Source of the DNA: Gammaproteobacteria bacterium
Lineage (GTDB): Bacteria > Pseudomonadota > Gammaproteobacteria > GCA-002705445 > GCA-002716945
Length of the DNA: 64,000 bases
Reading direction: 5' to 3'
Assembly: GCA_029246085.1 (NCBI GenBank)
Contig: JAQWOB010000035.1
Span: 12,407-76,406, forward strand
This document shows positions 8,972 to 64,000 of this stretch, one piece after another. Under the pieces are notes generated by a model. That model made no database searches. It was not told the DNA's origin and saw nothing but the letters and a program-made list of their open reading frames with translations. Both the position numbers and the translations under genes were made by a program. Every line of letters begins with the position of its first letter. The first letter of the stretch is position 1.

Positions 8972-9202
8972 CTAGCTCTTTTTTAATAAAAAATAAAACT
9001 TATTATCTTTCTCTTCCGTGCTTAATAACTGATTTCCTGTTTGAGTGGCAAATGATTCAAAATCTTTAACTGCTCCTGGATCAGTTGATATAATTTTTAA
9101 TGTTTGACCAGCATCCATTCCGTTAATTTCTTTTTTAGCTTTTATTATAGGTAGCGGACAATTTAGTCCGCTAGTATCTAATTCTTTATCAAAATCTGAC
9201 AT
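8972..9202 (-). CDS. TusA-like sulfur carrier protein
   Basis: 76 aa with the CPxP motif (LNCPLPIIKAKK) of TusA/SirA. Confidence 0.75.
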   Translation of the reverse strand: MSDFDKELDTSGLNCPLPIIKAKKEINGMDAGQTLKIISTDPGAVKDFESFATQTGNQLLSTEEKDNKFYFLLKKS

Positions 9203-10774: not shown

Positions 10775-11116
10775 ATGAAAAATATACGAACTTTAATTGC
10801 TACTATTGTATTTACCTTGTCACTTGGAAATACTGCTTATTCTGGAGATATTGAGGAAGGTAAAAAATTAGCCTTTGATAGAAAGAAAGGTAACTGCTTG
10901 GCCTGTCATATGATGGATGATGGTGAACTAGCTGGTAATAATGGTCCTCCGCTAATAGCAATGAAGGCAAGATTCCCAAATAAACAGGATTTGTTTGATC
11001 AAATTTGGGATCCAACTAAAAATGACCCAAACTCATTTATGCCTCCTTTTGGAAAGCATGGGGCCATATCTAAAACTGAAATTAATAAAATAATAGAGTA
11101 TCTATATACTCTTTGA
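10775..11116 (+). CDS. soxX: SoxX, monoheme cytochrome c subunit of SoxAX
   Basis: 113 aa. Signal peptide, single CxxCH (CLACHMM); sits immediately upstream of soxYZA. Confidence 0.8.
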   Translation: MKNIRTLIATIVFTLSLGNTAYSGDIEEGKKLAFDRKKGNCLACHMMDDGELAGNNGPPLIAMKARFPNKQDLFDQIWDPTKNDPNSFMPPFGKHGAISKTEINKIIEYLYTL

Positions 11117-11589
11117 GGAAAATTATGAATAGAAGAAACTTTTTAAAAAATTCCCTTATGACCGTAGGTACTATAACAACTCTTGCGGGATTAATGATTA
11201 AACCAAAAAGATTATATGCGGCATGGCCGAAAGCATCTTTTGATATCACGGGCTTAAGTGATTCAATTAATAGTGTATATGGGCATAATAATTTGAATGA
11301 AAGCTCAGAAGTTATACTTAAAGCGCCTGATATTGCAGAAAATGGAGCAATTGTCCCCTTAAATGTAAAAACAAAACTTAAAAATGTTGAGTCAATAATG
11401 ATATTTGTTGAAAATAATCCTCAACCTTTATCTAGTGGTTATAACTTAAGCTCTAAATCGGTGCCAATCGTTGGAACAAGAATTAAAATGGGCAAAACTT
11501 CAAAAGTAATAGCGGCCGTAAAAAGCAATGGGAAAATATACACCGCTTCTAAGGAAGTGAAAGTAACAATTGGCGGATGTGGAGGTTAG
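11113..11589 (+). CDS. soxY: SoxY thiosulfate carrier protein
   Basis: 158 aa. Tat-like signal (RRNFLK) and the canonical C-terminal GGCGG carrier motif. Confidence 0.9.
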   Translation: MRKIMNRRNFLKNSLMTVGTITTLAGLMIKPKRLYAAWPKASFDITGLSDSINSVYGHNNLNESSEVILKAPDIAENGAIVPLNVKTKLKNVESIMIFVENNPQPLSSGYNLSSKSVPIVGTRIKMGKTSKVIAAVKSNGKIYTASKEVKVTIGGCGG

Positions 11590-11595
11590 ATAATT

Positions 11596-11904
11596 ATGAG
11601 TACAATAAAACTTAGAGCAAAAGAAAGTAAAGGCGTGGTAACTGTTAAGGCAATCATTAAGCATCCTATGGAAACAGGACAGAGAAAGAATAAGAAAACA
11701 GGTGAAAAAATTCCTGCTCACTTCATACAACAAGTAATTTGCAAAGCAAATAATGATGAAGTGATTACGATAAATTGGGGCCCAGCAGTTTCAAAAAACC
11801 CTTACCTAACATTCGCCTATATGGGCTCTAAAGGTGATGCGATTGAACTTACATGGGAAGACAACCAAGGAAATAAAGATTCTCTCCAGGGCGAGGTTAA
11901 ATAA
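11596..11904 (+). CDS. soxZ: SoxZ
   Basis: 102 aa, follows soxY; typical size and position for SoxZ. Confidence 0.8.
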   Translation: MSTIKLRAKESKGVVTVKAIIKHPMETGQRKNKKTGEKIPAHFIQQVICKANNDEVITINWGPAVSKNPYLTFAYMGSKGDAIELTWEDNQGNKDSLQGEVK

Positions 11905-11911
11905 ATATTAA

Positions 11912-12745
11912 ATGTATAATTATTTTCATAATTTTGTATTAATTATTTTATTTATAAATGTAACTGCATTTGCTTCACCAGAAGAGGATCAAAAGTTATT
12001 TAGAGATCATTTTGAAAATAGATTTCCTAATACTGAATTCAGTGATTATAAAAATGGAGTTTACTCAATTGATGCATCATCAAGAGAGCAATGGGAATCA
12101 ATAGAAGATTTTCCTCCTTATGAGCTAAATATTGATCAAGGTGAAGAGCTGTTTAATCAACCATTCAAAAATGGTAATACCTATGCGACTTGTTTTGAAA
12201 ATTCAGGCATAGCAGTAAGGCAAAATTATCCTTACTTTGATGAATCTACAAATCAGGTTATGACGCTGGAGCTAGCAATTAATAACTGCAGGAAAAAAAA
12301 TGGTGAGAAGCCCTTGAGTTATTACAAAGGCGGGCCAATGGCTGATATATCTGCTTATATGGCTTATACATCTAGAGGGAATAAATTTGATGTTAAAATA
12401 CCAAATAGCCAAGAAGCTCTCGATGCTTATGAGGCTGGCAAAAAACTCTATTTCACTAAAGTTGGCCAATTAAATTTTTCTTGTGCAGACTGTCATGTAT
12501 ACCAGACAGGTAGTAAATTAAGAGCTGATATTCCAAGTCCAGGCATTGGACACTCTACTCACTTCCCAGCATATAGGTCAGGAGCTGGACGCTTAGTAAC
12601 ATTACATGAAAGATTTGCTGGTTGCTTAAACAGAGTCAGAGCCAAACCTTTTAAAGCACAAAATGAAGAATATAGAAATTTAGAATACTTTATCAGTTAT
12701 ATGAGTAATGGGTTAGAAATAAATGGCCCAGGAAGCAGAAAATAG
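11912..12745 (+). CDS. soxA: SoxA, cytochrome c subunit of SoxAX (monoheme type)
   Basis: 277 aa. Signal peptide, CADCH heme site and a downstream conserved Cys (GCLNRVR). Confidence 0.8.
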   Translation: MYNYFHNFVLIILFINVTAFASPEEDQKLFRDHFENRFPNTEFSDYKNGVYSIDASSREQWESIEDFPPYELNIDQGEELFNQPFKNGNTYATCFENSGIAVRQNYPYFDESTNQVMTLELAINNCRKKNGEKPLSYYKGGPMADISAYMAYTSRGNKFDVKIPNSQEALDAYEAGKKLYFTKVGQLNFSCADCHVYQTGSKLRADIPSPGIGHSTHFPAYRSGAGRLVTLHERFAGCLNRVRAKPFKAQNEEYRNLEYFISYMSNGLEINGPGSRK

Positions 12746-14196: not shown

Positions 14197-14208
14197 AGCC
14201 TGATTATA

Positions 14209-14281: not shown

Positions 14282-14282
14282 A

Positions 14283-15482
14283 TTATATCTTTTCAAGTGC
14301 TCTGAATTTATTTGGTATTAAATTCAGATCTGCTAATGAAGACCTAAGACTATCAAAAAAACTACAATCTTCATAGACTGCATTATAATATTCTATTTTC
14401 ATTGCGATAGCTGAGCCAATAACTATTGATGTTAATGTTATAAATGACCCTATTGCTAGAGTCGATACTCCTGACACTCCTTGACCAATCGTGCAACCCA
14501 TTGATAGTACACCACCAATACCTATCAGAACAGCACCTATCATATGTCTTTTAAAGTCCTCTTTTGACTGAAACCATTCCATCCTAAAGCTTCTAGACAT
14601 CATGGAGTAGACAAAAGAACCTAAAATAACAGAAAGTAAAGCAGTAACACCGAAGGTCAAATAATAAATATCTGCAGACTTGCTAAAATATATGATGCTT
14701 TCACCCATCGGGTTTATAAATGTAAAAGACTGAACTCCTACACCCGGCAATGGACTATCTAAAAAGTCATTCGTTTCAATCCATTCTTGTCCTAAAGTAG
14801 AACCTGTTAAATACCAAGCAAGGACTACAACGCTTCCTACTATAAAACCACCAATTACATTATCTATATTTTTTACAAAAGAACCGGATCTGAATATATA
14901 ATACATGAAGATAAACCCTACCAGTAAACCTATTGTAAGCTTGTAATACACTGTATTTGCTGTAAATATTATAGACGACATGATTGTAGACAATGATTGA
15001 TCTTCTATCCCTAATATAGCTAAATCAGGGCTAATTGGGTTCATCCAACTATGGAAAATTATTCCATAAAAATCTGTTCTGGTCATTATATATGCCATGA
15101 GGCCCGCTATCAGAAGAACTACTATTGATTTAAGGTTGCCTCCACCAATTCTTATTAAAACTTTATTACCACACCCACTTGCATACGTCATTCCTACGCC
15201 AAACATAAGCCCGCCCAAAACATATCTAGGCCAACTAAAAACAGAGTTTCTGTAAGGTATTCTTGAGTTATTAAGGTCGAAGTATGATAGAAATTCAAAT
15301 ACAGTCACTCCAAGTATTGCAATAGCTGCAGCAAACATCCAAGACTTAAAACGTGATAAATCTCCAATATTAACCCAGTCTGAAACAGCACCCATTGTGC
15401 AAAAATTTGTTTTACTTACAACAAAACCAAGGATAAAACCTAAAATCGCTATGTATGACAATAATAAACCTGAGATTTCCAT
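14283..15482 (-). CDS. YeeE/YedE-family sulfur-containing-compound (thiosulfate) transporter
   Basis: 399 aa polytopic membrane protein with two repeated halves, each bearing a conserved Cys (FCTMGAV and GCTIGQG). Confidence 0.65.
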   Translation of the reverse strand: MEISGLLLSYIAILGFILGFVVSKTNFCTMGAVSDWVNIGDLSRFKSWMFAAAIAILGVTVFEFLSYFDLNNSRIPYRNSVFSWPRYVLGGLMFGVGMTYASGCGNKVLIRIGGGNLKSIVVLLIAGLMAYIMTRTDFYGIIFHSWMNPISPDLAILGIEDQSLSTIMSSIIFTANTVYYKLTIGLLVGFIFMYYIFRSGSFVKNIDNVIGGFIVGSVVVLAWYLTGSTLGQEWIETNDFLDSPLPGVGVQSFTFINPMGESIIYFSKSADIYYLTFGVTALLSVILGSFVYSMMSRSFRMEWFQSKEDFKRHMIGAVLIGIGGVLSMGCTIGQGVSGVSTLAIGSFITLTSIVIGSAIAMKIEYYNAVYEDCSFFDSLRSSLADLNLIPNKFRALEKI

Positions 15483-38136: not shown

Positions 38137-38154
38137 ACTCTATAATATCATTTT

Positions 38155-53240: not shown

Positions 53241-53295
53241 TCATATAGTTGACTCTCGATATAAGTATAGAGAACTTTAATATATATAGGAATAT

Positions 53296-54129: not shown

Positions 54130-55063
54130 AATTAGTTATAAGCTCTATGTCTTTATCTGACTGAATAATATCATGTAAAAACTTTTTCCATTTCTTAGAT
54201 GAGCTAGTATTATAATATAAACTAAACAAATGCCTAAGCAAGAGATAATTACTTGTATTTTTATTTTGAAGACTTAATGCATATTTTAAATATTTTTTTA
54301 AAATACTTTGTCTAGATAAGGTTTCATTATTATTATATATTTCTTTTTCAATTTGATTCAAGAACATTGGGTTATCATATATTCTTCTTCCAATCATCAG
54401 GCCGTCAAACTTATTAATATTTTTTCTAATTTCTGAAATATCTTCTACTCCACCATTTAAGTAAAACTCAAGACCAGGAAAAGAATCTTTGACAGTAGTA
54501 ACATCAGCATATCTTAATAACGGTATCTTTCTATTTTTCTTTGGACTGAGACCATTTAATATTGCATTTCTCGCATGAATTATATACTTGCTACATCCAA
54601 ACACTTTTGTTTTATTAATTAAAGTAAAGAGCAAGTCAAGATTTTCTTCATAACCCAATCCTAATCTAGTTTTGATAGAGATGGGTAAGTCACACGATTG
54701 TTTTATCTCGTAAACACATTCAGCGACCTTGTCCGGATTATTCATCAGGCAAGCTCCAAACTCCCCCCTCACTACTTTAGAGCTAGGGCATCCAATATTT
54801 AGATTAATTTCATCATAACCTTGATCTTCAATAATACTGGCACATTGACCATATTTCTTAGGGTCTGATCCTGCCAACTGAATTGTTAGATTTTTTTCTC
54901 CTTCTTTGACCACGTAGTCTTTCCTATTTGTATGAAGAAAAGAGTCACATGTAATCATTTCTGTATATAAATAGATATTTTTTGATAATATTCTTACAAA
55001 TGCCCTATAATGTTCATCTGTTCTGCCAACCATAGGGGCTAAATATATACGCTTATTATCCAT
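54086..55063 (-). CDS. dusA: tRNA-dihydrouridine synthase A
   Basis: 325 aa; LAPMVGRTDEHYRAF and the Cys-containing active site region typical of DusA. Confidence 0.85.
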   Translation of the reverse strand: MDNKRIYLAPMVGRTDEHYRAFVRILSKNIYLYTEMITCDSFLHTNRKDYVVKEGEKNLTIQLAGSDPKKYGQCASIIEDQGYDEINLNIGCPSSKVVRGEFGACLMNNPDKVAECVYEIKQSCDLPISIKTRLGLGYEENLDLLFTLINKTKVFGCSKYIIHARNAILNGLSPKKNRKIPLLRYADVTTVKDSFPGLEFYLNGGVEDISEIRKNINKFDGLMIGRRIYDNPMFLNQIEKEIYNNNETLSRQSILKKYLKYALSLQNKNTSNYLLLRHLFSLYYNTSSSKKWKKFLHDIIQSDKDIELITNFEESTYDEEIKAYR

Positions 55064-55119
55064 GCTGAGTTATTCTATTATATAAGATACTTAATATCTA
55101 ATGATAACCTTTTAATAAA

Positions 55120-55722
55120 ATGAATATAAATAAAGAAGATATAACAATAGTAATATTAGCAGGTGGAAAATCCGAGAGAATGGATGGCCAGGATAAAGGT
55201 TTAATGCGGATAAACAAAAAATATGTTATCAAACATTTATATGATATCTGCAAAGAATACTCTAATGAAATTTATGTTAATGCTAATAGGAATATTGATA
55301 TATATAATAAAATGGGGCTAATAACTTGGCAGGATATATTAAAGGATTATCAAGGACCCTTATCAGGCATATATACATCACTATTTAATACTAAAACAAA
55401 ATATCTAATAACTCTACCATGCGATGGTCCATTACTTAGTCATACATACTTTGAGCGCATGACTAACATTAATAATCATTTTGATGTTAGAGCTGCTCAT
55501 AATGGAGATAGGATACAGCCCGTATATTCCTTAATAAAAAAAGATCTATTGAATAACTTAAAATCATTTATAGATACTGGTCAGAGAAAAATTGATAAAT
55601 GGTATAATCAATGTAGCCTAGAATTAGTAGATTTCTCAGATGAGAAAAATATATTTATTAATATAAACAGCCAAGAAGACTTGATAGAATATAAAACACT
55701 AATAAATAAAAGCATAAAATAA
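55120..55722 (+). CDS. mobA: Molybdenum cofactor guanylyltransferase MobA
   Basis: 200 aa; ILAGGKSERMDGQDKGL, VNANR, GPLSGI and PCDGP motifs align with E. coli MobA. Confidence 0.75.
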   Translation: MNINKEDITIVILAGGKSERMDGQDKGLMRINKKYVIKHLYDICKEYSNEIYVNANRNIDIYNKMGLITWQDILKDYQGPLSGIYTSLFNTKTKYLITLPCDGPLLSHTYFERMTNINNHFDVRAAHNGDRIQPVYSLIKKDLLNNLKSFIDTGQRKIDKWYNQCSLELVDFSDEKNIFININSQEDLIEYKTLINKSIK

Positions 55723-55723
55723 T

Positions 55724-56254
55724 ATGGATAATACAAAAAGAATAGCATGGTGTATTACTGGTTCTGGTCATTATCTAAAAGAATCAATAGAGATTATATT
55801 TACTCTAAAAAATGTAGACTTATTTCTTAGTGGAGCAGGCGAGGAAGTTCTTAAATGGTATGACTATAGTCTTGAAGATTTTAAATCAAAAGGAATTAAG
55901 GTTTTTAAAGATATTACAGCCAGCTCTGCTCCTGTTAGTTTACTATATGAGAATGTATATAAGCTAATTGTAGTTTCTCCTGCAACATCTAATACTATTG
56001 CACAAATGTCTTATGGATTATCAGATACTTTGGTGACAAATATGTTTGCACAAGCTGGTAAATGCAAAATACACTCAATAGTCTTTGCCTGTGATACTGA
56101 GCCTACGGTAATAACACAAGCACCAAAAAAGTCTGTGACATTATACCCACGTGATATAGAGTTAGAAAATTATGAAAAATTAAAAAAATTTAAGAATGTT
56201 GATGTTGTGGATAATGTTATGAAATTAAATCGAGCTCTAAAAAAATGGGTATGA
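55724..56254 (+). CDS. Flavoprotein of the AfpA/DmrB-like (PF02441) family, candidate dihydromethanopterin reductase
   Basis: 176 aa; N-terminal IAWCITGSGH flavin-binding start typical of the Flavoprotein family. Located in the H4MPT-biosynthesis island. Confidence 0.5.
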   Translation: MDNTKRIAWCITGSGHYLKESIEIIFTLKNVDLFLSGAGEEVLKWYDYSLEDFKSKGIKVFKDITASSAPVSLLYENVYKLIVVSPATSNTIAQMSYGLSDTLVTNMFAQAGKCKIHSIVFACDTEPTVITQAPKKSVTLYPRDIELENYEKLKKFKNVDVVDNVMKLNRALKKWV

Positions 56255-57636
56255 AAAAGAATATTTTATTTATTACGGGAAAATTAGCTGAGAAAAATCT
56301 AAAGAAGATTTTAGACTGCATAGAAGAGAAAGATTTTTCATATGAAATAAGGAATCTTAATATTAATGTTGCTGCATTGCTTACTACAGAAATGATATAT
56401 AGACGTATTGGAAATGTGGATAACTTCAGCAAGATTATATTGCCTGGTAAGGTTAGAGGCGATATAGATGAGTTGGCTAAAAAACTTAAGACTAAAATTG
56501 AGCGCGGACCAGAAGAATTAAAAGACTTGCCAGTTATGTTTGGAGGTAATCCCTTAAAATATGATCTCTCAAAGTATGAGGTACATATATTTGCTGAAAT
56601 AACTGATGCTCCTAATATGAAAATACAAGAAATTATCAGTATGGCTAATTATTATAGAGATAATGGTGCAGATATAATTGATATTGGCTGTTTACCTAAT
56701 AAACCATTTCCTCATTTATCTGAAACTATACAAGAGCTAAAACGTCAAGATTTTTATGTCAGCATAGATTCTCATTTAGATAAAGAATTAATTCTTGGGG
56801 GAAAATCTGGAGCAGACTATCTTTTGAGTATAAAATCAGATAATTTTTATATCCTAGATGAAGTAGATTCATACCCTATCCTAATACCTAAGGATGGAGA
56901 TATGGTCAGTCTATATGATTGCATTGATAGATGTATTGAAAATAAAAGAATATTTATTGCAGACCCTATTTTAGATCCAATAAACTATGGTTTTACTCAA
57001 TCAATTACTAGGTATAGTGAATTGAGAAAAAGGTATCCAGATATCCATATTATGATGGGTACTGGTAATGTAACAGAGCTTACTCATGCAGATACAACTG
57101 GAATGACTATGATACTGATGGGGATAATATCTGAACTTAAAATTAATCATATTTTAACTACTGAAGTTAGCAAACATTGCAGAACAGTAATTAAAGAAAG
57201 TGATTTAGCACGAAGGATTATTCTAGCAGCAAGTCTTGGAAACACCACGCCAAAACATATTAATTCAGGACTACTTACAACTCATGAAGAAGATCCTATA
57301 AGATACAATGCGCAAGAAGTTGAAGAATTGTTTGAACAAGTTAAAGATTCTAGCTATAGAATAATGAATACAGATGACGGTGTTAATTTGTTTAACAAAA
57401 AAGGGTTGCAAGTTGCTATCGATCCTTTTGATTTCTTTGAAAAGATAGACGTTGGAGATGATACTGGTCATGCTTTTTATTTAGGAGTAGAATTAGCTAG
57501 AGCTCAAATTGCACACCAACTAGGAAAAACTTATGAACAAGATGAAGAATTGAAATGGGGTTGCTTAGTAGATGAAAAGATTGATGATAAGCTTGAATTT
57601 AAAGAACAAGGTCCAACTTTTAAAAAGAAAAAATGA
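56245..57636 (+). CDS. H4MPT-biosynthesis dihydropteroate-synthase-like protein (N-terminal DUF6513-like domain + pterin-binding domain)
   Basis: 463 aa; the C-terminal half shows DHPS-like TIM-barrel features (GTGNVTELTHADTTG). This domain architecture is known from methylotroph H4MPT clusters. Confidence 0.5.
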   Translation: MGMKKNILFITGKLAEKNLKKILDCIEEKDFSYEIRNLNINVAALLTTEMIYRRIGNVDNFSKIILPGKVRGDIDELAKKLKTKIERGPEELKDLPVMFGGNPLKYDLSKYEVHIFAEITDAPNMKIQEIISMANYYRDNGADIIDIGCLPNKPFPHLSETIQELKRQDFYVSIDSHLDKELILGGKSGADYLLSIKSDNFYILDEVDSYPILIPKDGDMVSLYDCIDRCIENKRIFIADPILDPINYGFTQSITRYSELRKRYPDIHIMMGTGNVTELTHADTTGMTMILMGIISELKINHILTTEVSKHCRTVIKESDLARRIILAASLGNTTPKHINSGLLTTHEEDPIRYNAQEVEELFEQVKDSSYRIMNTDDGVNLFNKKGLQVAIDPFDFFEKIDVGDDTGHAFYLGVELARAQIAHQLGKTYEQDEELKWGCLVDEKIDDKLEFKEQGPTFKKKK

Positions 57637-58202
57637 TATATGAAGTTATAGTCACAACTGTCTCTCAAAAAAATATAGTTCATATAGCGCCTATGGGAAT
57701 ACAGCTCATCGACGATAGAGTTATTATTTCACCTTTTCGGCCATCTCAAACGTTAGAGAATATTACTAAAAATAATCTAGCGACCATAAACTTTATTGAT
57801 GATGTAAGAGTGTTTGCAGGGATTGTTACAAAATATAAAAAAGATTGGGAGCTAGAAGATATTAAGGATAAGAGTGTAGTGCCAAGGCTGACACTAGCTA
57901 ATACTCATTATAATGTAATAGCCAAAGAATTTAAAGATGATGAGAAAAGACCTAATATAGTATGCGATATAAGTAAAAAAGTAATTAATAAACCATTTAT
58001 GGGTTTTAATAGGGCGCAGTTTTCAGTAATAGAGGCATCAGTATTAGTTAGCAGGCTGAGAATGCTACCTATAGAAAAAATTTTACAAGAAATAGAATAT
58101 CTTAAGATAGGAATTAAAAAGACCGCGGGACCAAGAGAGTCTCAAGCCTGGAAATGGATAGAAGATAAGATTCAAGAATTTCAAGAAGAGAATATGAAAT
58201 AA
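57633..58202 (+). CDS. DUF447-family protein (H4MPT-biosynthesis-associated)
   Basis: 189 aa; translationally coupled (ATGA) to the preceding gene. The family is typically co-located with methanopterin genes. Confidence 0.45.
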   Translation: MIYEVIVTTVSQKNIVHIAPMGIQLIDDRVIISPFRPSQTLENITKNNLATINFIDDVRVFAGIVTKYKKDWELEDIKDKSVVPRLTLANTHYNVIAKEFKDDEKRPNIVCDISKKVINKPFMGFNRAQFSVIEASVLVSRLRMLPIEKILQEIEYLKIGIKKTAGPRESQAWKWIEDKIQEFQEENMK

Positions 58203-58203
58203 C

Positions 58204-58887
58204 ATGGTAGGATTTCTTGCTAGTATAAAAGATATTGATGAAGCAACTATTGCTTCAAAAGTTGATATTGATATTTTAGATTTAAAAAATATTAATGATG
58301 GTGCATTAGGTTTTGTAGGTATCGAATTAATCTCTAAAGTAAAAATTTTATTACCCAATAATATTCTTAGTGTAACTATGGGTAATGATATTAATCCAAA
58401 TAATAGTAGTAATATAAAAAATTTAAAGATTCTTATAGAAAAAGAAATAAATTATTTAAAGATAGGAATGTTTGATAAAAAATATTTATCAGAACATCGG
58501 ATTATTCTTGAACAAATTAATTTCAAAAATACTAAACCTATCTGTGTAATATTTGCTGACCAAGACTTTGATATTAATAATGTAGAAAAACTTATCGATA
58601 TGGGTTATCAAGGCATAATGATTGACACATGTCATAAAAATAGTAAATCAATAATAGACCTATTGAGCCAGAAAGAGATAAAAGATTTTTTAAAGATAGT
58701 AAAATCTTATGGGATGGTTTGTGGCTTGTCCGGGTCTTTAAAACTTGATCATATACAAATGCTAAAAGAGTTAAATCCTGATTTTTTAGGATTTAGAGGA
58801 CAATTATGCGATTCATCGAAAGCACGGTATAAATTTAATATAAATCTAGCAAAAGAAGTTTCAAAAAAAATTAAGTTGGATTTTTGA
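58204..58887 (+). CDS. MfnB-like (DUF556) (5-formylfuran-3-yl)methyl phosphate synthase, methanofuran biosynthesis
   Basis: 227 aa; the N-terminus (LASIKDIDEATIASKVDIDILDLKNINDGALG...KIGMFD) parallels archaeal MfnB (LLVSPIDVEEAKEA...ADIIDVKNPKEGSLG...KVGLYG). Confidence 0.55.
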   Translation: MVGFLASIKDIDEATIASKVDIDILDLKNINDGALGFVGIELISKVKILLPNNILSVTMGNDINPNNSSNIKNLKILIEKEINYLKIGMFDKKYLSEHRIILEQINFKNTKPICVIFADQDFDINNVEKLIDMGYQGIMIDTCHKNSKSIIDLLSQKEIKDFLKIVKSYGMVCGLSGSLKLDHIQMLKELNPDFLGFRGQLCDSSKARYKFNINLAKEVSKKIKLDF

Positions 58888-60232
58888 GTAAATCTAATAG
58901 AGGTTTGATTTTATCAAACGTTTCCTTATACTCTGATTCAATTTCAGAGTCATAGACTATCCCGCCTCCTCCCCAAAAATATAATTTATCTTTTGTAGCA
59001 ATTATAGTTCTAATAGCAATATTTAAGTCAGTTGTTCCGCTAAAGCTAATATAGCCTATAGAGCCACAATAAATATTTCTATTGTCGGGCTCAAGCTCGC
59101 TTATAATCTGCATAGCCCTAATTTTTGGCGCACCTGTAATAGAACCTCCAGGGAAACAGTCCTTAATAAGCTTGTAAATATTACTATTACTGGCAATCTT
59201 ACCCTGAATAGTACTGACAAGATGATGGACGTTTGCAAATGTCTCAATACTAAATAACTCCTTAACTTTTACCGAACCAAATTCGCAATTTTTTCCCAAA
59301 TCATTTCTCAGTAAATCAACAATCATTAAGTTTTCTGCTCTCTCCTTATATGAAGTAGATAATTCCTCTATAAGCTGTTTATTAAGCTGTATATCAGCAG
59401 AAACAGGACGAGTTCCTTTTATTGGTTTAGTCTCTACAATATTTCCATCATAGGAGAGAAATCGTTCTGGAGAAAAACTCATTATATTAATAAAAGGCAT
59501 ATTTATATATGCCGAGTAAGGTGATGAGTAAGCAGGTGTGATCTTATTGTAAATATCCCAAGTGTCTCCACTATACTGAGCAGAAAATCTTTGTGAAAAG
59601 TTAATTTGATAGCAATCTCCACTCTGGATATATGATTGTATTTTATTAAATTTACTTTCATATTCATCATGGGTAATGTTCGATTCACAAGCTGAATTAA
59701 TTAAGAATTTTTTTTCTTGATTCTTATCAAATATTTTTTTTTCAAGGCATAATTTTATATTTTCAATAAAAGAATCTTCATTTCTATAAACTAAAGTTGT
59801 ATTTTTTTTATGATGGTCAACAATAACTGCCCAGTCATAAATACCAAATGCCATAAGTGGTACATTAAGATCATTTTTTTTAATTTCAATACCTTCATAA
59901 TGATTACCTAAATCATATGATAAATAACCAATCGCTCCACCAGTAAATGGCAAGTCACTAGTATCGGAGGGGTACTTTTTCATGACAATACCTACTACAT
60001 CTATTGGGTCATCTTTATATTCTTGGATACCATTTTTATTTTCTACTGTAGTCTTATCTATATAAGAAATTATTTTTTCTACTGGATTAGCACTAAGTAT
60101 GTCATATCTCTCATCTTGAAACTTATCATGATTACTACATAAAAATACTGACCACTCAGAATCTTTGATTACTGCAAATATATCGCGAGTATCACCATAA
60201 TAGTCATAACTAATTTTATTTTGTTTATTCAT
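58871..60232 (-). CDS. pabB: Aminodeoxychorismate synthase component I (chorismate-binding, PabB-like)
   Basis: 453 aa; C-terminal chorismate-binding-enzyme motifs (LMIVDLLRNDLG, FPGGSITGAPKIRAMQII, CGSIGYISFSG). Confidence 0.7.
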   Translation of the reverse strand: MNKQNKISYDYYGDTRDIFAVIKDSEWSVFLCSNHDKFQDERYDILSANPVEKIISYIDKTTVENKNGIQEYKDDPIDVVGIVMKKYPSDTSDLPFTGGAIGYLSYDLGNHYEGIEIKKNDLNVPLMAFGIYDWAVIVDHHKKNTTLVYRNEDSFIENIKLCLEKKIFDKNQEKKFLINSACESNITHDEYESKFNKIQSYIQSGDCYQINFSQRFSAQYSGDTWDIYNKITPAYSSPYSAYINMPFINIMSFSPERFLSYDGNIVETKPIKGTRPVSADIQLNKQLIEELSTSYKERAENLMIVDLLRNDLGKNCEFGSVKVKELFSIETFANVHHLVSTIQGKIASNSNIYKLIKDCFPGGSITGAPKIRAMQIISELEPDNRNIYCGSIGYISFSGTTDLNIAIRTIIATKDKLYFWGGGGIVYDSEIESEYKETFDKIKPLLDLLKNPT

Positions 60233-61274
60233 AATATTTTTTTAATAACAAAGAAAGCAAAAAAGATGGTGCTGCATCAGATGGCTCATATAATCTCTTA
60301 TTATATCTAATATTAATATACTGATTTAAAGACATATATTTCCAATTATTTTTTTTACTTATCATGTTAATAAGCATTCTACCAACACCCATACCAATAA
60401 CTTTGAGATCTTTCACATTAGAGAAGTTATCTTTAATATGACTTTTTATAGTATAACTTATTTGATCTAGATGCGCTGACATGATTTTTCTAGACAACAT
60501 ATGAATAGTCTTGTTTTTATCCACACAATAATCAAATCCAAAAACTCTTGAAATCCTATTTAAAGTATCTTTTTTTGATTTTAATCTTCCATCAGCTGTA
60601 TTAGTATAATCAGATTTTTTTTGGATAATTGATAGTAATCGATAAACATCAGACATCGTAGCAAAATTTTCAGGAATCACATTGTATACCCTCTTATTTA
60701 AATTAAGGGTATTTATTACTGAGTATATGGGAGTTCTTAAAACGCCAGTATAAAGTAACTCTTTAGTATTAAGGCCTGAATAATCATCATGCCTTTTGTT
60801 TATACATGTGTGGTTTTTTATAAGAACTATATCAGTAGTAGTAGATCCAATATCAATAGCTATTATATTTTTATCCATATATTTTAAATAATCAGGAATA
60901 GCCATCCAATTTGTTGACGCTAGAGATAAATATTTTTTAAAACCCTGAAACTTTAATATTCGATTATCTTTAGAATATATGTGGTTAATAAAACCTTTAT
61001 TCTCAAATAAAGAAAGTATCGCTTTAACACCTTCTCTTCTGGAGGAAAAGATATCGCACATTTCAGCTGACATACTAATTAGATTTATTATATGAAATTT
61101 TTTTCTATATTTTATATCTATGCTTTTAACTATACCTTCTAACTGTGATAAAGATTTCCATAGTTCACAAAGTATAATTCTAGATTCTACTATATCTCTA
61201 GTGTCTGACGATATAGTATATTTTGTATGAGCGCCACCTATGTCCCAACCAATATATAAATTTTTTTTATCCAT
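60225..61274 (-). CDS. Hydantoinase/oxoprolinase-family (ASKHA) protein of the H4MPT-linked C1-transfer set
   Basis: 349 aa; N-terminal GWDIGGAHTK and a second phosphate loop (IDIGSTTTD), the actin-like ATPase fold. This family is characteristically encoded in H4MPT clusters. Confidence 0.45.
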   Translation of the reverse strand: MDKKNLYIGWDIGGAHTKYTISSDTRDIVESRIILCELWKSLSQLEGIVKSIDIKYRKKFHIINLISMSAEMCDIFSSRREGVKAILSLFENKGFINHIYSKDNRILKFQGFKKYLSLASTNWMAIPDYLKYMDKNIIAIDIGSTTTDIVLIKNHTCINKRHDDYSGLNTKELLYTGVLRTPIYSVINTLNLNKRVYNVIPENFATMSDVYRLLSIIQKKSDYTNTADGRLKSKKDTLNRISRVFGFDYCVDKNKTIHMLSRKIMSAHLDQISYTIKSHIKDNFSNVKDLKVIGMGVGRMLINMISKKNNWKYMSLNQYINIRYNKRLYEPSDAAPSFLLSLLLKKYYE

Positions 61275-62217
61275 GATTATTTATATAATACTTCTTTCCA
61301 CTTATAATATTTTTTAATGGTTTTCTAGATATTATTAAATCAATAATATTTATCCCTATTGTGTCATAAATTCCAATAAATGATGTTGTCAATCTAGGGT
61401 TAATCTCAATAATAAATATATCATTACCTTTAGTTATAATATCAATACCAACAAAACCATATAGTCCTGGAAGTGAATCTTTAATTTTCGATATAAGATT
61501 TATTATTTTTAAATATGCAGGGTGTTCCACATTAACAATAATACTACTTAACCTAGCTCTATTATTTTTATACTCTAATATTTGTTTATTAATAGTGAGT
61601 ATATAAAAATTATTTTTAGTAAAATAAATTGAGATACTATAATCATCACCATTTATATATGGTTGGATTATTTTATCATCCTTAATTAGTTCAAGGTTTT
61701 TTTTATTTTTAGTAATTTCTATATGAGAGCATCCTGCTCCATACCTATCTTTAATTAAAAGTAACTTATTATGTAAATCACTACTATATTTCTGATATGT
61801 ATCAATAGTAGGTAAAGAGTTCTTCTGGCAAAATTTATAAAACTTTAATTTATCGGAACATGTTTTTATCGTTTGTGAATTAGATATTACAGCATCAACT
61901 CCATTCTTTTCTAAGTATTCTACATAAAGATACAAGCTCATATCTATTTCTGGCAATATAGGTAATACATAATCGTATTTTCTTAAAAAATCTATATCAT
62001 AAATTTTGCTATTATCTCTTAAGACTATAGATTCTTTCTCATTTACAGGTGAAAGGCGAAAATCTCTAAAATAGCTATGCTTGATATGCTTTAATTTTCG
62101 ACAACTATCGTAAACTGAGGAAGTTATCATATTAGCTTCACTCATAAGATCAGAAGTTAAATCTTCATTTAAAAGCCCTCCTCCTGTAATATATTCATAT
62201 ATTAATATCTTTTTCAT
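61267..62217 (-). CDS. ATP-grasp ligase (MfnD/MptN-like glutamate ligase candidate)
   Basis: ATP-grasp motifs (IIQPYINGDDYSISIYF, GFVGIDII...IFIIEINPR). Start placed at the internal MKKILIYEY (62217); the ORF track's upstream start (62310) would overlap the divergent gene by 90 nt. Confidence 0.6.
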   Translation of the reverse strand: MKKILIYEYITGGGLLNEDLTSDLMSEANMITSSVYDSCRKLKHIKHSYFRDFRLSPVNEKESIVLRDNSKIYDIDFLRKYDYVLPILPEIDMSLYLYVEYLEKNGVDAVISNSQTIKTCSDKLKFYKFCQKNSLPTIDTYQKYSSDLHNKLLLIKDRYGAGCSHIEITKNKKNLELIKDDKIIQPYINGDDYSISIYFTKNNFYILTINKQILEYKNNRARLSSIIVNVEHPAYLKIINLISKIKDSLPGLYGFVGIDIITKGNDIFIIEINPRLTTSFIGIYDTIGINIIDLIISRKPLKNIISGKKYYINNHG

Positions 62218-62220
62218 ACT

Positions 62221-62919
62221 ATGGACATAATCCCTGTTATAGACATTCTTAATAACCAAGTGGTTAGAGCAATTAAAGGTGATAGAGATAATTATCAGTC
62301 TATCAACCATAAATTATACAATAGTACAGACCCAAGAGATATAATTGATCAAATTGTAAAAAGGTATTCTCCTAAGATATTATACATTGCTGATTTAGAT
62401 GCAATTATACATAACACTATAGACCCGAAGATATATAATGATATTTTATCTTCATTTCCAAAAACTAAATTCTGGATTGACTCTGGTTTGAAAGAAATAA
62501 AATTAAAAAAGAAATATAGAAATTATTATCCTGTTTTTTGCAGTGAAAAATCAAAAGGCTATGAATTTTCATCAAATAAATTTAATAATTGTGTTTGCTC
62601 ATTTGATTTTATGGGAAAATATATAGGAGAGAAACCTATATATAGACAACAAAAAGCATCCCCATCAAAAATTATACTCATGGACTTGCTTCAAGTTGGA
62701 TCAAAAAATAATATTAATTATAAACTTGCTAGAAGATTTATTAGAAATAATAACCAAGATTATTATATTGCTGGTGGAATTAAATCTATATTTGATATCA
62801 AAAGAGCAAAGTATTTTGGTGCGAGCGGAGTTTTAGTTTCAACAATGATTCATCAGAATAAGATTACAAAATATATGATTCAAAAAGAAAAAACCAGCTC
62901 TAAAAATAGAGCTGGCTAA
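62221..62919 (+). CDS. HisA/HisF-family (His_biosynth TIM-barrel) protein, H4MPT-biosynthesis-associated
   Basis: 232 aa; N-terminal MDIIPVIDILNNQVVRAIKGD matches the HisA start (IIPAIDL...G). Confidence 0.5.
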   Translation: MDIIPVIDILNNQVVRAIKGDRDNYQSINHKLYNSTDPRDIIDQIVKRYSPKILYIADLDAIIHNTIDPKIYNDILSSFPKTKFWIDSGLKEIKLKKKYRNYYPVFCSEKSKGYEFSSNKFNNCVCSFDFMGKYIGEKPIYRQQKASPSKIILMDLLQVGSKNNINYKLARRFIRNNNQDYYIAGGIKSIFDIKRAKYFGASGVLVSTMIHQNKITKYMIQKEKTSSKNRAG

Positions 62920-62936
62920 TCTTACTGTTCTAAGTA

Positions 62937-63455
62937 CTACTTAGGTGAGTATGGGTGAGCAGAATCTGCTGCTGCTGCAACAACGTCTTCAGCTGTTGGC
63001 GTACCAGCAACTGCAGCTTTGATAGCCATCATTGTAGCTTCATAGTTGTAGTCATAAATTCTAGTATCATCATTAGCATCCCAATGGATGAAAACACCAA
63101 CACAAACGAAAATATCATTAGCTTCAGCTGCTGGAATTGTTCCATTTTTTACAGAATCTGTAACAGCCATAGCTACCGCTCTTTGAGCTGGTCCAAACAT
63201 TTGAACTGCCTGTTTAGCGCCTTTAATAGTAACCTTATTAAACATTACTGTAGCTGGTTTAGTTGGTAGGTTAGGTGCACATACAGCTAATAGCGAAGTA
63301 AAACCATCTTTGTTATTACAAAGTGTATTACAAAATGCATCTTCTACAGCTGATCCACGTGGACCCATTATTAAGTCGATATGAGCTATTTCGTTATCAC
63401 CGCCTTCAGTTACAACTAGTCCTTCACCGACTAATACTTTATCAATTACTGCCAT
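62937..63455 (-). CDS. fae: Formaldehyde-activating enzyme (5,6,7,8-tetrahydromethanopterin hydro-lyase)
   Basis: 172 aa; near-collinear with Methylobacterium Fae ([73 protein letters not shown]). Confidence 0.9.
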
Positions 63456-63488
63456 TTTTATCTCCTTGTTTATATTAAATGGTTTCTA

Positions 63489-64000
63489 CTAAGATTGTAC
63501 ACTTTTGAAGATTCTATGAATCATCAAACTTGCGACTAATAAATCTGCAGTAGTCCCCGGATTAATTCCTTTTTTCTTGTATTCATAATCAAGATCATTT
63601 AACTGTTTAACCAGATAACCCTGACTACAATCCTTGTCTTGTATTTTTAACAAATCATTGACACGATTACTAGTCTTTTTTGCTATTTCTTCACCTAATT
63701 TCCGTGAAATATGCGAATCAGGGATTTTACTCAAGATTTGAAGATATGTCATTGATATTGAAATATCACTAGATTTATATTTAATCATGTTTTTATCGAG
63801 GCTAGGAATAATAAAATCAAGAATATCTTGATAATTATTATGATATTGATATGAAATACGGTCATATTGAGCCGAATAACTCATTATTTCTCTTAATTTC
63901 ACTGCCGGCATAGATTTAGTATCATAATCTAAAACATCACCTAATCCACCAGGATTAGCAATATTTATGGCCTCACATATCTTTACAGTATCGTCACTAG
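63489..64000 (-). CDS. Triphosphoribosyl-dephospho-CoA synthase (CitG/MdcB)-like protein, H4MPT-cluster type; 5' end beyond window
   Basis: GINPGTTADLLVASL motif. The reading frame stays open upstream of the called Met to the window edge, so the gene is truncated by the window. Confidence 0.5.
   Translation of the reverse strand, partial: SDDTVKICEAINIANPGGLGDVLDYDTKSMPAVKLREIMSYSAQYDRISYQYHNNYQDILDFIIPSLDKNMIKYKSSDISISMTYLQILSKIPDSHISRKLGEEIAKKTSNRVNDLLKIQDKDCSQGYLVKQLNDLDYEYKKKGINPGTTADLLVASLMIHRIFKSVQS

What the first reader, a model, noticed from the sequence alone, without database searches (positions are those of the whole stretch)
55120..64000. Compact H4MPT / methanofuran cofactor-biosynthesis island with fae and mobA in an AT-rich sulfur-oxidiser
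Eleven consecutive genes form a recognisable tetrahydromethanopterin plus methanofuran cofactor-biosynthesis module, together with the formaldehyde-activating enzyme. They are mobA, an AfpA/DmrB-like flavoprotein, a DUF6513+DHPS-like protein, DUF447, an MfnB/DUF556-like protein, pabB, an ASKHA/hydantoinase-family protein, an ATP-grasp ligase, a HisA-like protein, fae and a CitG-like protein. The same window carries soxXYZA, TusA and YeeE, so one streamlined genome combines thiosulfate oxidation with H4MPT-dependent formaldehyde handling. The C1-transfer enzymes themselves (mtdB, mch, fhcABCD/fwd) are not in the window. The role could therefore be formaldehyde detoxification or energy gain (methylovory) rather than growth on C1 compounds. 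Having mobA at the head of the island fits supply of the molybdopterin-guanine-dinucleotide cofactor to a formylmethanofuran-dehydrogenase-type enzyme. Several of the biosynthetic steps encoded here remain biochemically unassigned in bacteria: DUF447, the ASKHA protein, the HisA-like protein, the CitG-like protein and the DUF6513 domain.
Basis: partly seen in the sequence, partly recalled or inferred. Interest (0 to 1): 0.6.

Follow-up and report, generated by a model that had tools for sequence, protein, structure and literature searches.

The report
Methanopterin formaldehyde-oxidation gene cluster, marine bacterium
This is one half of the well-known bacterial gene cluster that burns formaldehyde using the cofactors tetrahydromethanopterin and methylofuran; in this tiny-genome marine sulfur-oxidising bacterium it lies next to a methanethiol oxidase, and the combination has already been reported for what is probably the same lineage.

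Summary
They are mobA, dmrB, a DUF6513/DHPS-like protein, DUF447, MfnB, pabB, MfnF-like, an MfnD-like ATP-grasp, the HisA/F-like Orf17, fae and a CitG-like protein cut by the window end.

The window edge splits the island. In contigs 98-99% identical to the window it continues with MyfB-like, mch, MyfA-like, mtdB, mptG and fhcBADC. That gives 21 genes in about 18.8 kb.

Immediately after fhcC lies a methanethiol-oxidase operon: mtoX, a SCO1-MauG fusion and a thiol-disulfide oxidoreductase. This adjacency holds across the whole marine clade. The likely role is dissimilation of methanethiol: formaldehyde goes through H4MPT/Fhc to formate, and sulfide goes to sulfur oxidation.

FhcB lacks the Cys118, His119 and Arg288 residues of Mo/W FwdB.

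Gene order matches Thiobacillus, Thiodiazotropha and Methylococcaceae. A complete H4MPT pathway plus MTO has been published for the 1.1-Mb, low-GC marine order GCA-002705445, which fits this organism although membership is unproven.

One small oddity remains. The MfnE kinase is absent from the island, and mobA is linked to it only in this clade.

Verdict: ordinary and already known; low interest.

The parts
55120..55722 (+). mobA, molybdenum cofactor guanylyltransferase. First gene of a five-gene plus-strand operon, with a 1-nt gap to dmrB.
   Evidence: TIGR02665, 174.1 bits against a cutoff of 151.85; PF12804. Linked to the cluster only in the marine clade, with 43-50% identity in L007-L009.
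55724..56254 (+). dmrB, the flavoprotein dihydromethanopterin reductase (AfpA/DmrB type).
   Evidence: PF02441; TIGR02699 and TIGR02700 hits. E=9.6e-52 to PDB 3wis/4mwg, 'putative dihydromethanopterin reductase (AfpA)'.
56245..57636 (+). DUF6513 plus dihydropteroate-synthase-like protein (the 'orf19' type of methylotroph clusters; that name is from my memory). Presumed to couple the pterin to RFAP in H4MPT synthesis.
   Evidence: PF20123, 92.6 bits; TIGR00284, 175.7 bits, below the 256.65 cutoff. No relative with a solved structure. Syntenic with dmrB and DUF447 in many loci.
57633..58202 (+). DUF447 protein with a split-barrel, PNPOx-like fold. Its step in cofactor synthesis is unknown.
   Evidence: PF04289 plus PF20766; weak PNPOx_N hit. 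PDB relatives 3b5m and 2ptf (MTH_863) are all uncharacterised.
58204..58887 (+). MfnB/Orf22 homologue, 4-(hydroxymethyl)-2-furancarboxaldehyde-phosphate synthase. It makes the furan ring of methylofuran.
   Evidence: PF04476, 149 bits. E=3e-19 to MJ1099 (4rc1). The DxK, K and D motifs are aligned and conserved by my reading of the alignment. NCBIfam equivalog scores are below their cutoffs.
58871..60232 (-). pabB, aminodeoxychorismate synthase component I. Supplies p-aminobenzoate for RFAP synthase.
   Evidence: TIGR00553, 373 bits against 328. Found at the same position in Thiobacillus, Lamprocystis, Thiodiazotropha and Methylococcaceae loci.
60225..61274 (-). MfnF/Orf9 homologue, an ASKHA/hydantoinase_A-like protein. 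Presumed to couple the furan moiety to glutamyl-tyramine or glutamyl-tyrosine.
   Evidence: TIGR03123, 224.9 bits (cutoff 244.1); NF040623 MfnF, 143.6 bits; PF01968. The Orf9 = MfnF mapping is from PMC8141765.
61267..62217 (-). MfnD-like ATP-grasp ligase (Orf1 type), the predicted tyramine/tyrosine-glutamate ligase.
   Evidence: PF02655, 119.8 bits. NF040722 MfnD, 106.9 bits over the full length but below cutoff. Its start codon lies 3 bp from the divergent orf17 start.
62221..62919 (+). Orf17, a HisA/HisF-related TIM-barrel protein.
   Evidence: TIGR00734, 78 bits (below cutoff); PF00977, 63 bits. In M. extorquens, orf17 is essential for methylofuran and not for H4MPT (PMC8141765).
62892..62917 (-). 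Terminator-like hairpin (11 bp stem followed by a T-run) just downstream of fae, lying inside the 3' end of orf17.
   Evidence: The total count of terminator-like sites (4) is not far above the shuffled expectation (2.5), so this is suggestive only.
62937..63455 (-). fae, formaldehyde-activating enzyme.
   Evidence: TIGR03126, 227.3 bits against 118; PF08714, 215.8 bits. The exact protein occurs on 87 public contigs.
63489..64000 (-). 3' 170 codons of a CitG-like gene (the 'orf7' type; name from my memory), cut by the window end. Full length is 292 aa in L002.
   Evidence: Open frame to the window end. PF01874 CitG on the full-length product. Weak TIGR03125 hit.
10775..12745 (+). soxX, soxY, soxZ and soxA. 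This is context, not part of the island.
   Evidence: Cytochrome c, PF13501 SoxY, PF08770 SoxZ and PF21342 SoxA.
8972..9202 (-). tusA-like sulfur carrier (context).
   Evidence: NF001423 TusA, 61 bits (cutoff 78). CPxP motif visible in the sequence.
14283..15482 (-). YeeE/Sulf_transp family transporter (context).
   Evidence: PF04143, 180 bits.

Best explanation
The window holds the cofactor-biosynthesis half of a complete, canonical proteobacterial 'archaeal-like' gene cluster. That cluster carries out tetrahydromethanopterin (H4MPT) and methylofuran (MYFR) dependent oxidation of formaldehyde to formate.

The full island has 21 genes in about 18.8 kb. It runs from mobA (55120) past the window end through the CitG-like gene, MyfB-like, mch, MyfA-like, mtdB and mptG to fhcB-fhcA-fhcD-fhcC.

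Pathway steps:
- Fae condenses formaldehyde with dH4MPT.
- MtdB oxidises methylene-H4MPT to methenyl-H4MPT, yielding NAD(P)H.
- Mch opens it to formyl-H4MPT.
- The Fhc complex moves the formyl group to methylofuran and hydrolyses it to formate.

The remaining genes make the two cofactors:
- H4MPT: PabB, MptG, the DHPS-like protein and DmrB, possibly with DUF447 and the CitG-like protein.
- Methylofuran: MfnB, MfnF-like, MfnD-like, MyfA-like, MyfB-like and Orf17.

A methanethiol oxidase operon abuts fhcC. It comprises mtoX, a SCO1-MauG maturation fusion and a thiol-disulfide oxidoreductase. The main formaldehyde source is therefore most likely methanethiol (CH3SH + O2 + H2O -> HCHO + H2S + H2O2).

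The C1 part then yields reducing power through this island, and the sulfide feeds the organism's sulfur-oxidation system (soxXYZA, TusA and YeeE in this window). The host is a streamlined, roughly 30% GC marine planktonic gammaproteobacterium, probably of GTDB order GCA-002705445.

Shown here: gene identities, gene order, adjacency and their conservation.
Inferred: direction of flux, methanethiol as substrate, dissimilatory rather than assimilatory use, and the taxonomic placement.

mobA is a genuine MobA that is probably only co-transcribed here. It most likely serves a Mo-bisMGD enzyme encoded elsewhere, such as SoeABC or a formate dehydrogenase, and not Fhc.
For: - Family assignments are. 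Above curated cutoffs: Fae, FhcA (722 vs 393), FhcD (436 vs 293), Mch (412 vs 229), MptG family (123 vs 113.5), MtdB Mpt_N (122 vs 27), MobA, PabB and MtoX (NF052453, 692 vs 650).
- DmrB matches 3wis at 1e-51. MfnB matches MJ1099 at 3e-19.
- Continuity beyond the window: L002 is 99.0% identical, and L005/L131 98.4% identical, over window 52937-63996.
- The same gene order (fhcCDAB | mptG-mtdB-ATPgrasp-mch-RimK-CitG-fae | orf17 | MfnD-MfnF-pabB) occurs in Thiobacillus denitrificans, Parasulfuritortus, Lamprocystis, Thiodiazotropha and Methylococcaceae loci.
- The mto trio is adjacent to fhcC in every marine-clade contig long enough to show it, across 74-100% FhcD identity.
- The MTO reaction and the mtoX-SCO1-mauG operon, including SCO1-MauG fusions, are described in PMC5739008.
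- Literature describes the same gene content in small, low-GC marine genomes: PMC8371827 with its supplement, bioRxiv 10.1101/2022.08.12.503524 and bioRxiv 10.1101/2025.05.13.653689.
- FhcB lacks C118, H119 and R288.
Against: - No expression, enzyme or cofactor data exist for this organism.
- The off-window half and the mto operon were read from near-identical metagenome contigs, not from the window itself.
- Placement in GCA-002705445 rests on matching traits only. All close database relatives are labelled just 'Gammaproteobacteria bacterium'.
- No formate dehydrogenase, methanol dehydrogenase or C1-assimilation genes could be searched for genome-wide.
- The MfnE-type kinase expected in such clusters was not found in the island, so methylofuran synthesis is not fully accounted for.
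- Several biosynthetic proteins score below NCBIfam equivalog cutoffs: MfnB, MfnF, MfnD, FhcB and the DHPS-like protein.
Confidence: 0.78

Rival explanations
1. This is a cofactor-biosynthesis island whose leading mobA supplies molybdopterin guanine dinucleotide to a formylmethanofuran-dehydrogenase-type (Fwd/Fmd) enzyme, so formyl-MFR would be oxidised to CO2 (or CO2 reduced) at a Mo/W centre.
For: - mobA is a bona fide MobA, lies 1 nt upstream of dmrB, and keeps that position across the marine clade.
- The FhcB homologue retains the N-terminal CPFCxxxCDD...C motif of FwdB.
Against: - FhcB has Phe116-Leu117 in place of the metal-ligand Cys118-His119, and Ser in place of Arg288, as do all 17 bacterial homologues aligned.
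- It has no Pfam molybdopterin-domain hit.
- No FwdD, FwdF or FwdG-type subunits lie in the operon.
- mobA is absent from the cluster in about 75 other loci.
- The M. extorquens complex is described as a formyltransferase/hydrolase (PMC6926001 title and abstract).
Confidence: 0.04
2. Detoxification only. The pathway merely removes formaldehyde released by assorted demethylations (DMSP, methylated amines, methanethiol) and contributes little to energy metabolism.
For: - No methanol or methylamine dehydrogenase lies in the roughly 90 kb examined.
- H4MPT clusters with this same gene order occur in organisms not labelled as methylotrophs, such as Caballeronia and Thiobacillus.
Against: - About 23 kb of a roughly 1.1-Mb genome is kept for this function, physically joined to mtoX across a deeply diverged clade. 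The genome size assumes the organism belongs to GCA-002705445.
- SBP56/MTO proteins of GCA-002705445 were detected in bloom metaproteomes, and the authors read this as dissimilatory methylotrophy (PMC8371827).
- MtdB yields NAD(P)H in any case, so detoxification and energy gain are not exclusive.
Confidence: 0.15
3. True methylotrophic growth. The island is the dissimilatory arm of a full C1-assimilating metabolism (RuMP, serine cycle or CBB), so the organism grows on methanethiol or other C1 compounds.
For: The complete oxidation module plus mtoX is present. [quoted passage not shown]
Against: Francis et al. could not identify RuMP or serine-pathway genes in the two 1.1-Mb GCA-002705445 genomes (supplement). 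No assimilation genes lie in the regions read here. This was not testable genome-wide with these tools.
Confidence: 0.1
4. Non-orthologous displacement. The MobA-like nucleotidyltransferase at the head of the dmrB...mfnB operon replaces the missing MfnE kinase. It would activate the furan-methyl phosphate by nucleotidylation instead of pyrophosphorylation.
For: The distributions are complementary. An MfnE-like AA_kinase lies in the cluster in 40 other loci but is undetectable in the window and in all marine-clade loci. mobA is cluster-linked only in the marine clade.
Against: - The protein passes the MobA equivalog cutoff.
- GCA-2705445 genomes are reported to carry soeABC, a Mo-bisMGD client.
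- About 35 other loci also show no MfnE within 10 kb and have no mobA either.
- MfnE may simply be encoded elsewhere in the genome.
Confidence: 0.05

Closest known systems
The 'archaeal-like' H4MPT/methylofuran gene cluster of Methylorubrum (Methylobacterium) extorquens AM1/PA1 and Methylobacillus flagellatus KT
   Same: It has the same enzyme set: fae, mtdB, mch, fhcABCD and mptG. It also has the MfnB (Orf22), MfnF (Orf9), MyfA (OrfY), MyfB (Orf5), Orf17, CitG-like, DHPS-like and DUF447 genes. The local order mtdB-ATPgrasp-mch-RimK-CitG-fae-orf17 is the same. Gene roles are from PMC8141765.
   Different: - It uses DmrB (the flavoprotein type, as in the 3wis entry) rather than DmrA; that M. 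extorquens uses DmrA is from my memory.
- It has an MfnD/Orf1-type ligase, as in tyramine-type MYFR strains such as M. flagellatus.
- pabB is included, and no MfnE/Orf21 is present in the island.
- The island is far more compact, with overlapping or 1-4 nt junctions, and mobA sits at one end and the mto operon at the other.
H4MPT clusters of sulfur-oxidising Beta- and Gammaproteobacteria (Thiobacillus denitrificans DSM 12475 L013, Parasulfuritortus L016, Lamprocystis L040, Ca. Thiodiazotropha L074) and Methylococcaceae L084
   Same: The order fhcCDAB | mptG-mtdB-ATPgrasp-mch-RimK-CitG-fae | orf17 | MfnD-MfnF-pabB is nearly identical. These carry the closest Fae sequences outside the marine clade, at 69-75% identity.
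   Different: Those clusters carry the MfnE-like kinase right after pabB. They lack mobA next to dmrB and lack an adjacent mtoX operon.
Marine order GCA-002705445 MAGs (Francis et al. 2021, PMC8371827; Priest et al. 2022, bioRxiv 10.1101/2022.08.12.503524)
   Same: They are marine planktonic Gammaproteobacteria with about 1.1-Mb genomes and low GC. They have a complete H4MPT formaldehyde-oxidation gene set, methanethiol oxidase (SBP56) and sulfur-oxidation genes, with no recognised C1 assimilation.
   Different: Those papers report gene content, not the physical arrangement. They list dsrAB and soeABC, whereas this window shows soxXYZA. Membership of the window's organism in that order was not proven here.
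mtoX-SCO1/senC-mauG methanethiol oxidase operon (Hyphomicrobium sp. VS, Ruegeria pomeroyi, Methylophaga thiooxydans; PMC5739008)
   Same: MtoX matches at equivalog level (692 bits against 650). It is followed by a single gene fusing SCO1 and MauG domains, as reported for M. thiooxydans.
   Different: Here the operon is placed back-to-back with fhcC of the H4MPT island. It carries an extra TlpA/ResA-like thiol-disulfide oxidoreductase and an upstream 513-aa beta-barrel-like outer-membrane protein.

Membership tests
Proteobacterial H4MPT/methylofuran-linked formaldehyde oxidation cluster | Formaldehyde-activating enzyme Fae | tested here: met
   TIGR03126, 227 bits against a cutoff of 118; PF08714, 216 bits.
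Proteobacterial H4MPT/methylofuran-linked formaldehyde oxidation cluster | Methylene-H4MPT dehydrogenase (MtdB/MtdA family) and methenyl-H4MPT cyclohydrolase (Mch) | tested here: met
   In L002, which is 99% identical to the window: Mpt_N at 121.8 bits against 27 and TIGR03120 Mch at 411.8 against 228.8. MtdB and MtdA were not discriminated; the MtdB name rests on gene position.
Proteobacterial H4MPT/methylofuran-linked formaldehyde oxidation cluster | Formyltransferase/hydrolase complex FhcABCD | tested here: met
   FhcA: TIGR03121, 722 vs 393. FhcD: TIGR03119, 436 vs 293. FhcC: GXGXG, 77.7 vs 32.5. FhcB: TIGR03129, 191 bits (below the 328 cutoff) but alignable end to end with FwdB.
Proteobacterial H4MPT/methylofuran-linked formaldehyde oxidation cluster | H4MPT-biosynthesis genes (RFAP synthase MptG, dihydromethanopterin reductase) | tested here: met
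   MptG: TIGR00144, 123 vs 113.5. DmrB: E=1e-51 to 3wis.
Proteobacterial H4MPT/methylofuran-linked formaldehyde oxidation cluster | Conserved gene order shared with reference organisms | tested here: met
   tblastn synteny matrix over 86 loci.
Proteobacterial H4MPT/methylofuran-linked formaldehyde oxidation cluster | Cells contain dephospho-H4MPT and methylofuran and oxidise formaldehyde to formate | not testable with these tools
   Needs LC-MS and enzyme assays on cells or enrichments.
Mo/W formylmethanofuran dehydrogenase (Fwd/Fmd) | Metal-ligand Cys118, His119 and Arg288 of subunit B (numbering of FwdB, PDB 5t5i) | tested here: not met
   Replaced by Phe116-Leu117 and Ser in the marine FhcB, and absent in all 17 bacterial homologues aligned. 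The catalytic role of these residues is from my knowledge of the 5t5i structure paper.
MobA molybdenum cofactor guanylyltransferase | Equivalog-level profile match over the full length | tested here: met
   TIGR02665, 174.1 bits against 151.85, covering residues 8-188 of 200. Activity and client enzyme were not tested.
Methanethiol oxidase MtoX (SBP56) | Equivalog profile match plus an adjacent SCO1/SenC and MauG maturation gene | tested here: met
   NF052453, 692 vs 650; PF05694. The neighbour gene carries SCO1-SenC plus CCP_MauG domains. The locus lies outside the window, on L131, which overlaps L005 on the same contig; L005 is 98.4% identical to the window.
MfnB 4-HFC-P synthase | Family profile and catalytic Asp/Lys residues of MJ1099 | tested here: inconclusive
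   PF04476, 149 bits; E=3e-19 to 4rc1. The DxK, K and D motifs are aligned by my reading. The NCBIfam equivalog models score 94-149 bits against cutoffs of about 300.
MfnF | Equivalog profile match | tested here: inconclusive
   TIGR03123, 224.9 vs 244.1; NF040623, 143.6 vs 520. It is a homologue, and orthology is supported by position (Orf9 of PMC8141765).
MfnE/Orf21 kinase (AA_kinase family) as a cluster member | Presence of a homologue in the island | tested here: not met
   A profile HMM built from 40 cluster-encoded homologues finds nothing (best E=5.4) in the window or in the marine-clade loci. The rest of the genome could not be searched.
GTDB order GCA-002705445 | Phylogenomic placement by marker-gene tree or ANI | not testable with these tools
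   Only trait agreement is available: marine origin, about 30% GC, very large contigs for a small genome, and H4MPT plus MTO plus sulfur oxidation.

The most novel reading that the evidence does not exclude
In this streamlined clade the methylofuran pathway would have lost the MfnE (Orf21) kinase. The MobA-like nucleotidyltransferase that heads the dmrB-DHPS-like-DUF447-mfnB operon would have taken over activation of the furan-methyl phosphate, by nucleotidylation instead of pyrophosphorylation. The roughly 23-kb mto + Fhc + H4MPT/MYFR supercluster of a 1.1-Mb genome would then define a minimal, partly re-invented gene set for both cofactors.
Probability: 0.05. Interest if true: 0.55.

Novelty: already known. 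Interest (0 to 1): 0.2.

Why it matters
Methanethiol is a major product of DMSP demethylation in the surface ocean. A very abundant, hard-to-assemble, tiny-genome gammaproteobacterial lineage appears to devote about 2% of its genome to one contiguous module. That module turns methanethiol into reducing power (C1 branch) and sulfide (sulfur branch), so it is relevant to marine sulfur and C1 budgets.

That idea is already in the literature. What this analysis adds is modest:
- the physical architecture of one conserved supercluster;
- a clear sequence-based reason why mobA is not there to serve Fhc;
- a compact gene set that could help assign the still-unknown cofactor-biosynthesis steps (DUF447, CitG-like, DUF6513, Orf17, and the missing MfnE).

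Tried and rejected
1. Taxonomy. A LeuA homologue search and exact-sequence cluster look-ups returned only 'Gammaproteobacteria bacterium' labels. The single genome-contig scan found no conspecific genome; the best Fae hits were 79-83% identical marine MAGs and SAGs. Placement therefore rests on literature trait matching.
2. SUP05/Thioglobus was my first guess for the host. Literature searches gave no support, and no close hit carries that name.
3. Promoter scan. 59 sigma-70-like sites were found against 63.4 expected from shuffles, which is uninformative in 30% GC DNA. Only the hairpin after fae is worth noting.
4. Rfam. Nothing lies in the island; only RNase P RNA and tRNA-Lys were found elsewhere.
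5. PDB sequence search for the DUF6513/DHPS-like protein gave no hit. DUF447 matched only uncharacterised structures.
6. Recently acquired mobile island: rejected. GC matches the surroundings. No integrase or flanking tRNA is present. The same flanks (dus on one side, mto on the other) are kept across a clade with only 74-83% identity in the most conserved enzymes.
7. The provisional gene labels in my table (orf21/orf22/orfY/orf5) were wrong. I corrected them from PMC8141765: Orf22 = MfnB, Orf9 = MfnF, OrfY = MyfA, Orf5 = MyfB.
8. I could not extend beyond about 9 kb past fhcC or search whole genomes for fdh, soe, moa/moe, mfnA, mfnC, mfnE or C1-assimilation genes.

Full report
**Observation**

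The region 55120-64000 contains ten complete ORFs and one ORF cut by the window end.
- MobA: TIGR02665, 174 bits against a cutoff of 152.
- A PF02441 flavoprotein that matches the solved dihydromethanopterin reductase DmrB/AfpA (PDB 3wis) at E=1e-51.
- A DUF6513 plus DHPS-like protein (TIGR00284).
- DUF447.
- 4-HFC-P synthase (MfnB), E=2e-43. It also matches MJ1099 at E=3e-19, with the catalytic Asp/Lys motifs aligned.
- PabB: TIGR00553, above cutoff.
- A TIGR03123/MfnF-like ASKHA protein.
- An MfnD-like ATP-grasp ligase.
- A HisA/F-related protein (TIGR00734).
- Fae: TIGR03126, 227 bits against 118.
- The C-terminal 170 codons of a CitG-family protein.

The context claims also hold. soxXYZA, a YeeE-type transporter and a TusA-like protein are present, and GC is 0.26-0.35.

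**The island continues beyond the window**

An exact-sequence look-up of Fae found it on 87 public contigs. TARA scaffold_81 (L002) is 99.0% identical to the window over 52937-63996. A JGI contig (L005/L131) is 98.4% identical.

In these contigs the CitG-like gene is followed by:
- a RimK/MptN-like ligase;
- mch (TIGR03120, 412 against 229);
- a second ATP-grasp_3 protein;
- mtdB (Mpt_N);
- the RFAP synthase mptG;
- divergently, fhcB, fhcA (722 against 393), fhcD (436 against 293) and fhcC.

The full island has 21 genes in about 18.8 kb. Junctions are overlapping or 1-4 nt apart. The divergent start codons of orf17 and the MfnD-like gene lie only 3 bp apart.

**Comparison with other genomes**

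I ran tblastn of all 21 proteins against 86 loci. The order fhcCDAB | mptG-mtdB-ATPgrasp-mch-RimK-CitG-fae | orf17 | MfnD-MfnF-pabB is shared with Thiobacillus denitrificans, Parasulfuritortus, Lamprocystis, Ca. Thiodiazotropha, Methylococcaceae and others. This is the canonical proteobacterial 'archaeal-like' cluster.

Gene roles follow Hemmann et al. 2021 (PMC8141765):
- Orf22 = MfnB.
- Orf9 = MfnF.
- OrfY = MyfA, which has partial MfnD similarity. This fits the 354-aa ATP-grasp between mtdB and mch.
- Orf5 = MyfB, which is MptN-like. This fits the RimK-type ligase after mch.
- Orf1 = the closer MfnD paralogue found in tyramine-type strains. This fits window 61267-62217.
- Orf17 is essential for methylofuran, not for H4MPT.

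DUF447, the CitG-like protein and DUF6513 remain unassigned. PDB relatives of DUF447 are all uncharacterised, and the DHPS-like protein has none.

**mobA**

I aligned the FhcB homologue with tungsten FwdB (5t5i). The N-terminal CPFCxxxCDD...C motif is retained. However, Phe116-Leu117 replace the metal-ligand Cys118-His119, and Ser replaces Arg288. The same losses occur in all 17 bacterial FhcB homologues I aligned.

There is no Pfam molybdopterin-domain hit. The complex is therefore the hydrolase type that releases formate, and it does not need MobA.

mobA, together with the neighbouring dus, is next to the cluster only in the marine clade. There it is conserved in position despite only 43-50% identity. 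It is probably co-transcribed, with a 1-nt gap to dmrB. It most plausibly serves a Mo-bisMGD enzyme encoded elsewhere. soeABC is reported for the likely lineage, and a formate dehydrogenase would also fit. This last point is inference.

**What lies past fhcC**

A metagenome scan with FhcD recovered L131, the same contig as L005, which extends 8.8 kb beyond fhcC. Back-to-back with fhcC lie:
- a TlpA/ResA-like thiol-disulfide oxidoreductase;
- a single gene fusing SCO1/SenC and MauG domains;
- MtoX methanethiol oxidase (NF052453, 692 bits against a cutoff of 650; SBP56).

These are followed by a 513-aa signal-peptide-bearing, beta-barrel-like outer-membrane protein, a 90-aa membrane protein, a BenC/MmoC-like reductase and a GST-like protein.

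The oxidoreductase, SCO1-MauG and mtoX genes sit next to fhcC in every marine-clade contig long enough to show them, across 74-100% FhcD identity. Outside the clade, only one short contig (L141) showed an oxidoreductase/SCO1-MauG-like pair near fhcC.

Eyice et al. (PMC5739008) showed that MTO converts methanethiol to formaldehyde, H2S and H2O2. They also showed that mtoX-SCO1-mauG is a conserved operon, with the two maturation domains fused in Methylophaga thiooxydans.

The best-supported mechanism is therefore a methanethiol-dissimilation supercluster. MTO makes formaldehyde and sulfide. The H4MPT/Fhc module oxidises the formaldehyde to formate and yields NAD(P)H. The sulfide enters sulfur oxidation. 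Gene identity and linkage are shown; substrate, flux direction and physiological role are inferred.

**Host and prior knowledge**

All close database relatives are labelled only 'Gammaproteobacteria bacterium'. Some sit on contigs of 640-870 kb.

- Francis et al. 2021 (PMC8371827 and supplement) describe the basal marine order GCA-002705445. Its genomes are 1.1 Mb with complete H4MPT formaldehyde-oxidation gene sets and no recognisable RuMP or serine pathway, and SBP56 was detected in metaproteomes.
- Priest et al. 2022 report MTO, a complete H4MPT pathway and sulfur oxidation (dsrAB, soeABC) in every species representative of genus GCA-2705445.
- The Great Barrier Reef study notes the order's GC is below 40% and its recovery from short reads is poor.

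These traits fit the window's organism well. The cluster type itself has been known for decades.

**One unexplained detail**

In 40 other loci the cluster includes an AA_kinase-family gene (MfnE/Orf21 type), usually right after pabB or MfnF. A profile HMM built from those 40 finds nothing in the 64-kb window or in any marine-clade locus.

The ordinary explanation is that the gene lies elsewhere in the genome. The speculative one is that the MobA-like enzyme, linked to the cluster only in this clade, displaces it. I rate this at about 5%, because the protein passes the MobA equivalog cutoff and about 35 other loci show neither gene nearby.

**Verdict**

The pathway identity is right; the mobA rationale is wrong; the 'missing' enzymes are adjacent; the methanethiol link was missed.
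- Novelty: already known, as a member of a known system in a lineage where it has probably already been reported.
- Interest is low, at about 0.2.

Noticed in passing
window 35873-38817: In the cell-division (dcw) cluster, ftsQ-like (38155-38817) and ftsA (36886-38136) are followed directly by lpxC (35873-36790) after a 95-bp gap. No ftsZ lies between ftsA and lpxC, where it normally sits.
   Followed up: no
L131 17564-17836 (-), about 6 kb beyond fhcC, outside the window: A 90-aa predicted membrane protein with no family hit is 95-96% identical across the marine clade, while its neighbours are only 69-88% identical. That is unusually strong conservation for an unknown small protein next to the mtoX region.
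   Followed up: partly
L131 15820-17361 (-), outside the window: A 513-aa Gly/Ala/Thr-rich protein with a signal peptide and a C-terminal ...TWTF lies just upstream of mtoX. It looks like an outer-membrane beta-barrel but has no Pfam hit. It may be a porin for methanethiol or related volatiles.
   Followed up: partly
L002 2934-4184 (-) and homologues in L007-L079: Most bacterial FhcB homologues, including the marine one, keep the FwdB-like N-terminal CPFCxxxCDD...C four-cysteine motif although the Mo/W site is gone. The one alphaproteobacterial sequence aligned (L020) lacks it. An Fe-S cluster in non-alphaproteobacterial Fhc complexes seems possible.
   Followed up: partly
window 52920-53256 (-): Bacterial RNase P RNA class A (295 bits) lies two genes upstream of the island. 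tRNA-Lys(UUU) is at 14208-14282.
   Followed up: no
window 62217-62221: The divergent start codons of the MfnD-like ligase and orf17 are separated by 3 bp, so each promoter must lie inside the other gene. The convergent pairs pabB/mfnB (17-nt overlap) and fae/orf17 (17-nt gap) are just as tight.
   Followed up: partly
window 12723-13283 (+), 53296-54129 (-): Two ORFs have no Pfam or NCBIfam family. One is a 186-aa putative lipoprotein directly after soxA. The other is a 277-aa protein between RNase P RNA and dus, with only a faint methyltransferase hint in one relative.
   Followed up: no
L004 (ENA ERZ1699696 contig_8693): This 88%-identical relative shows several island genes split into two ORFs (mptG, MyfA-like, mobA, dus). 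These are more likely assembly or frameshift errors than pseudogenes, but this was not checked.
   Followed up: no
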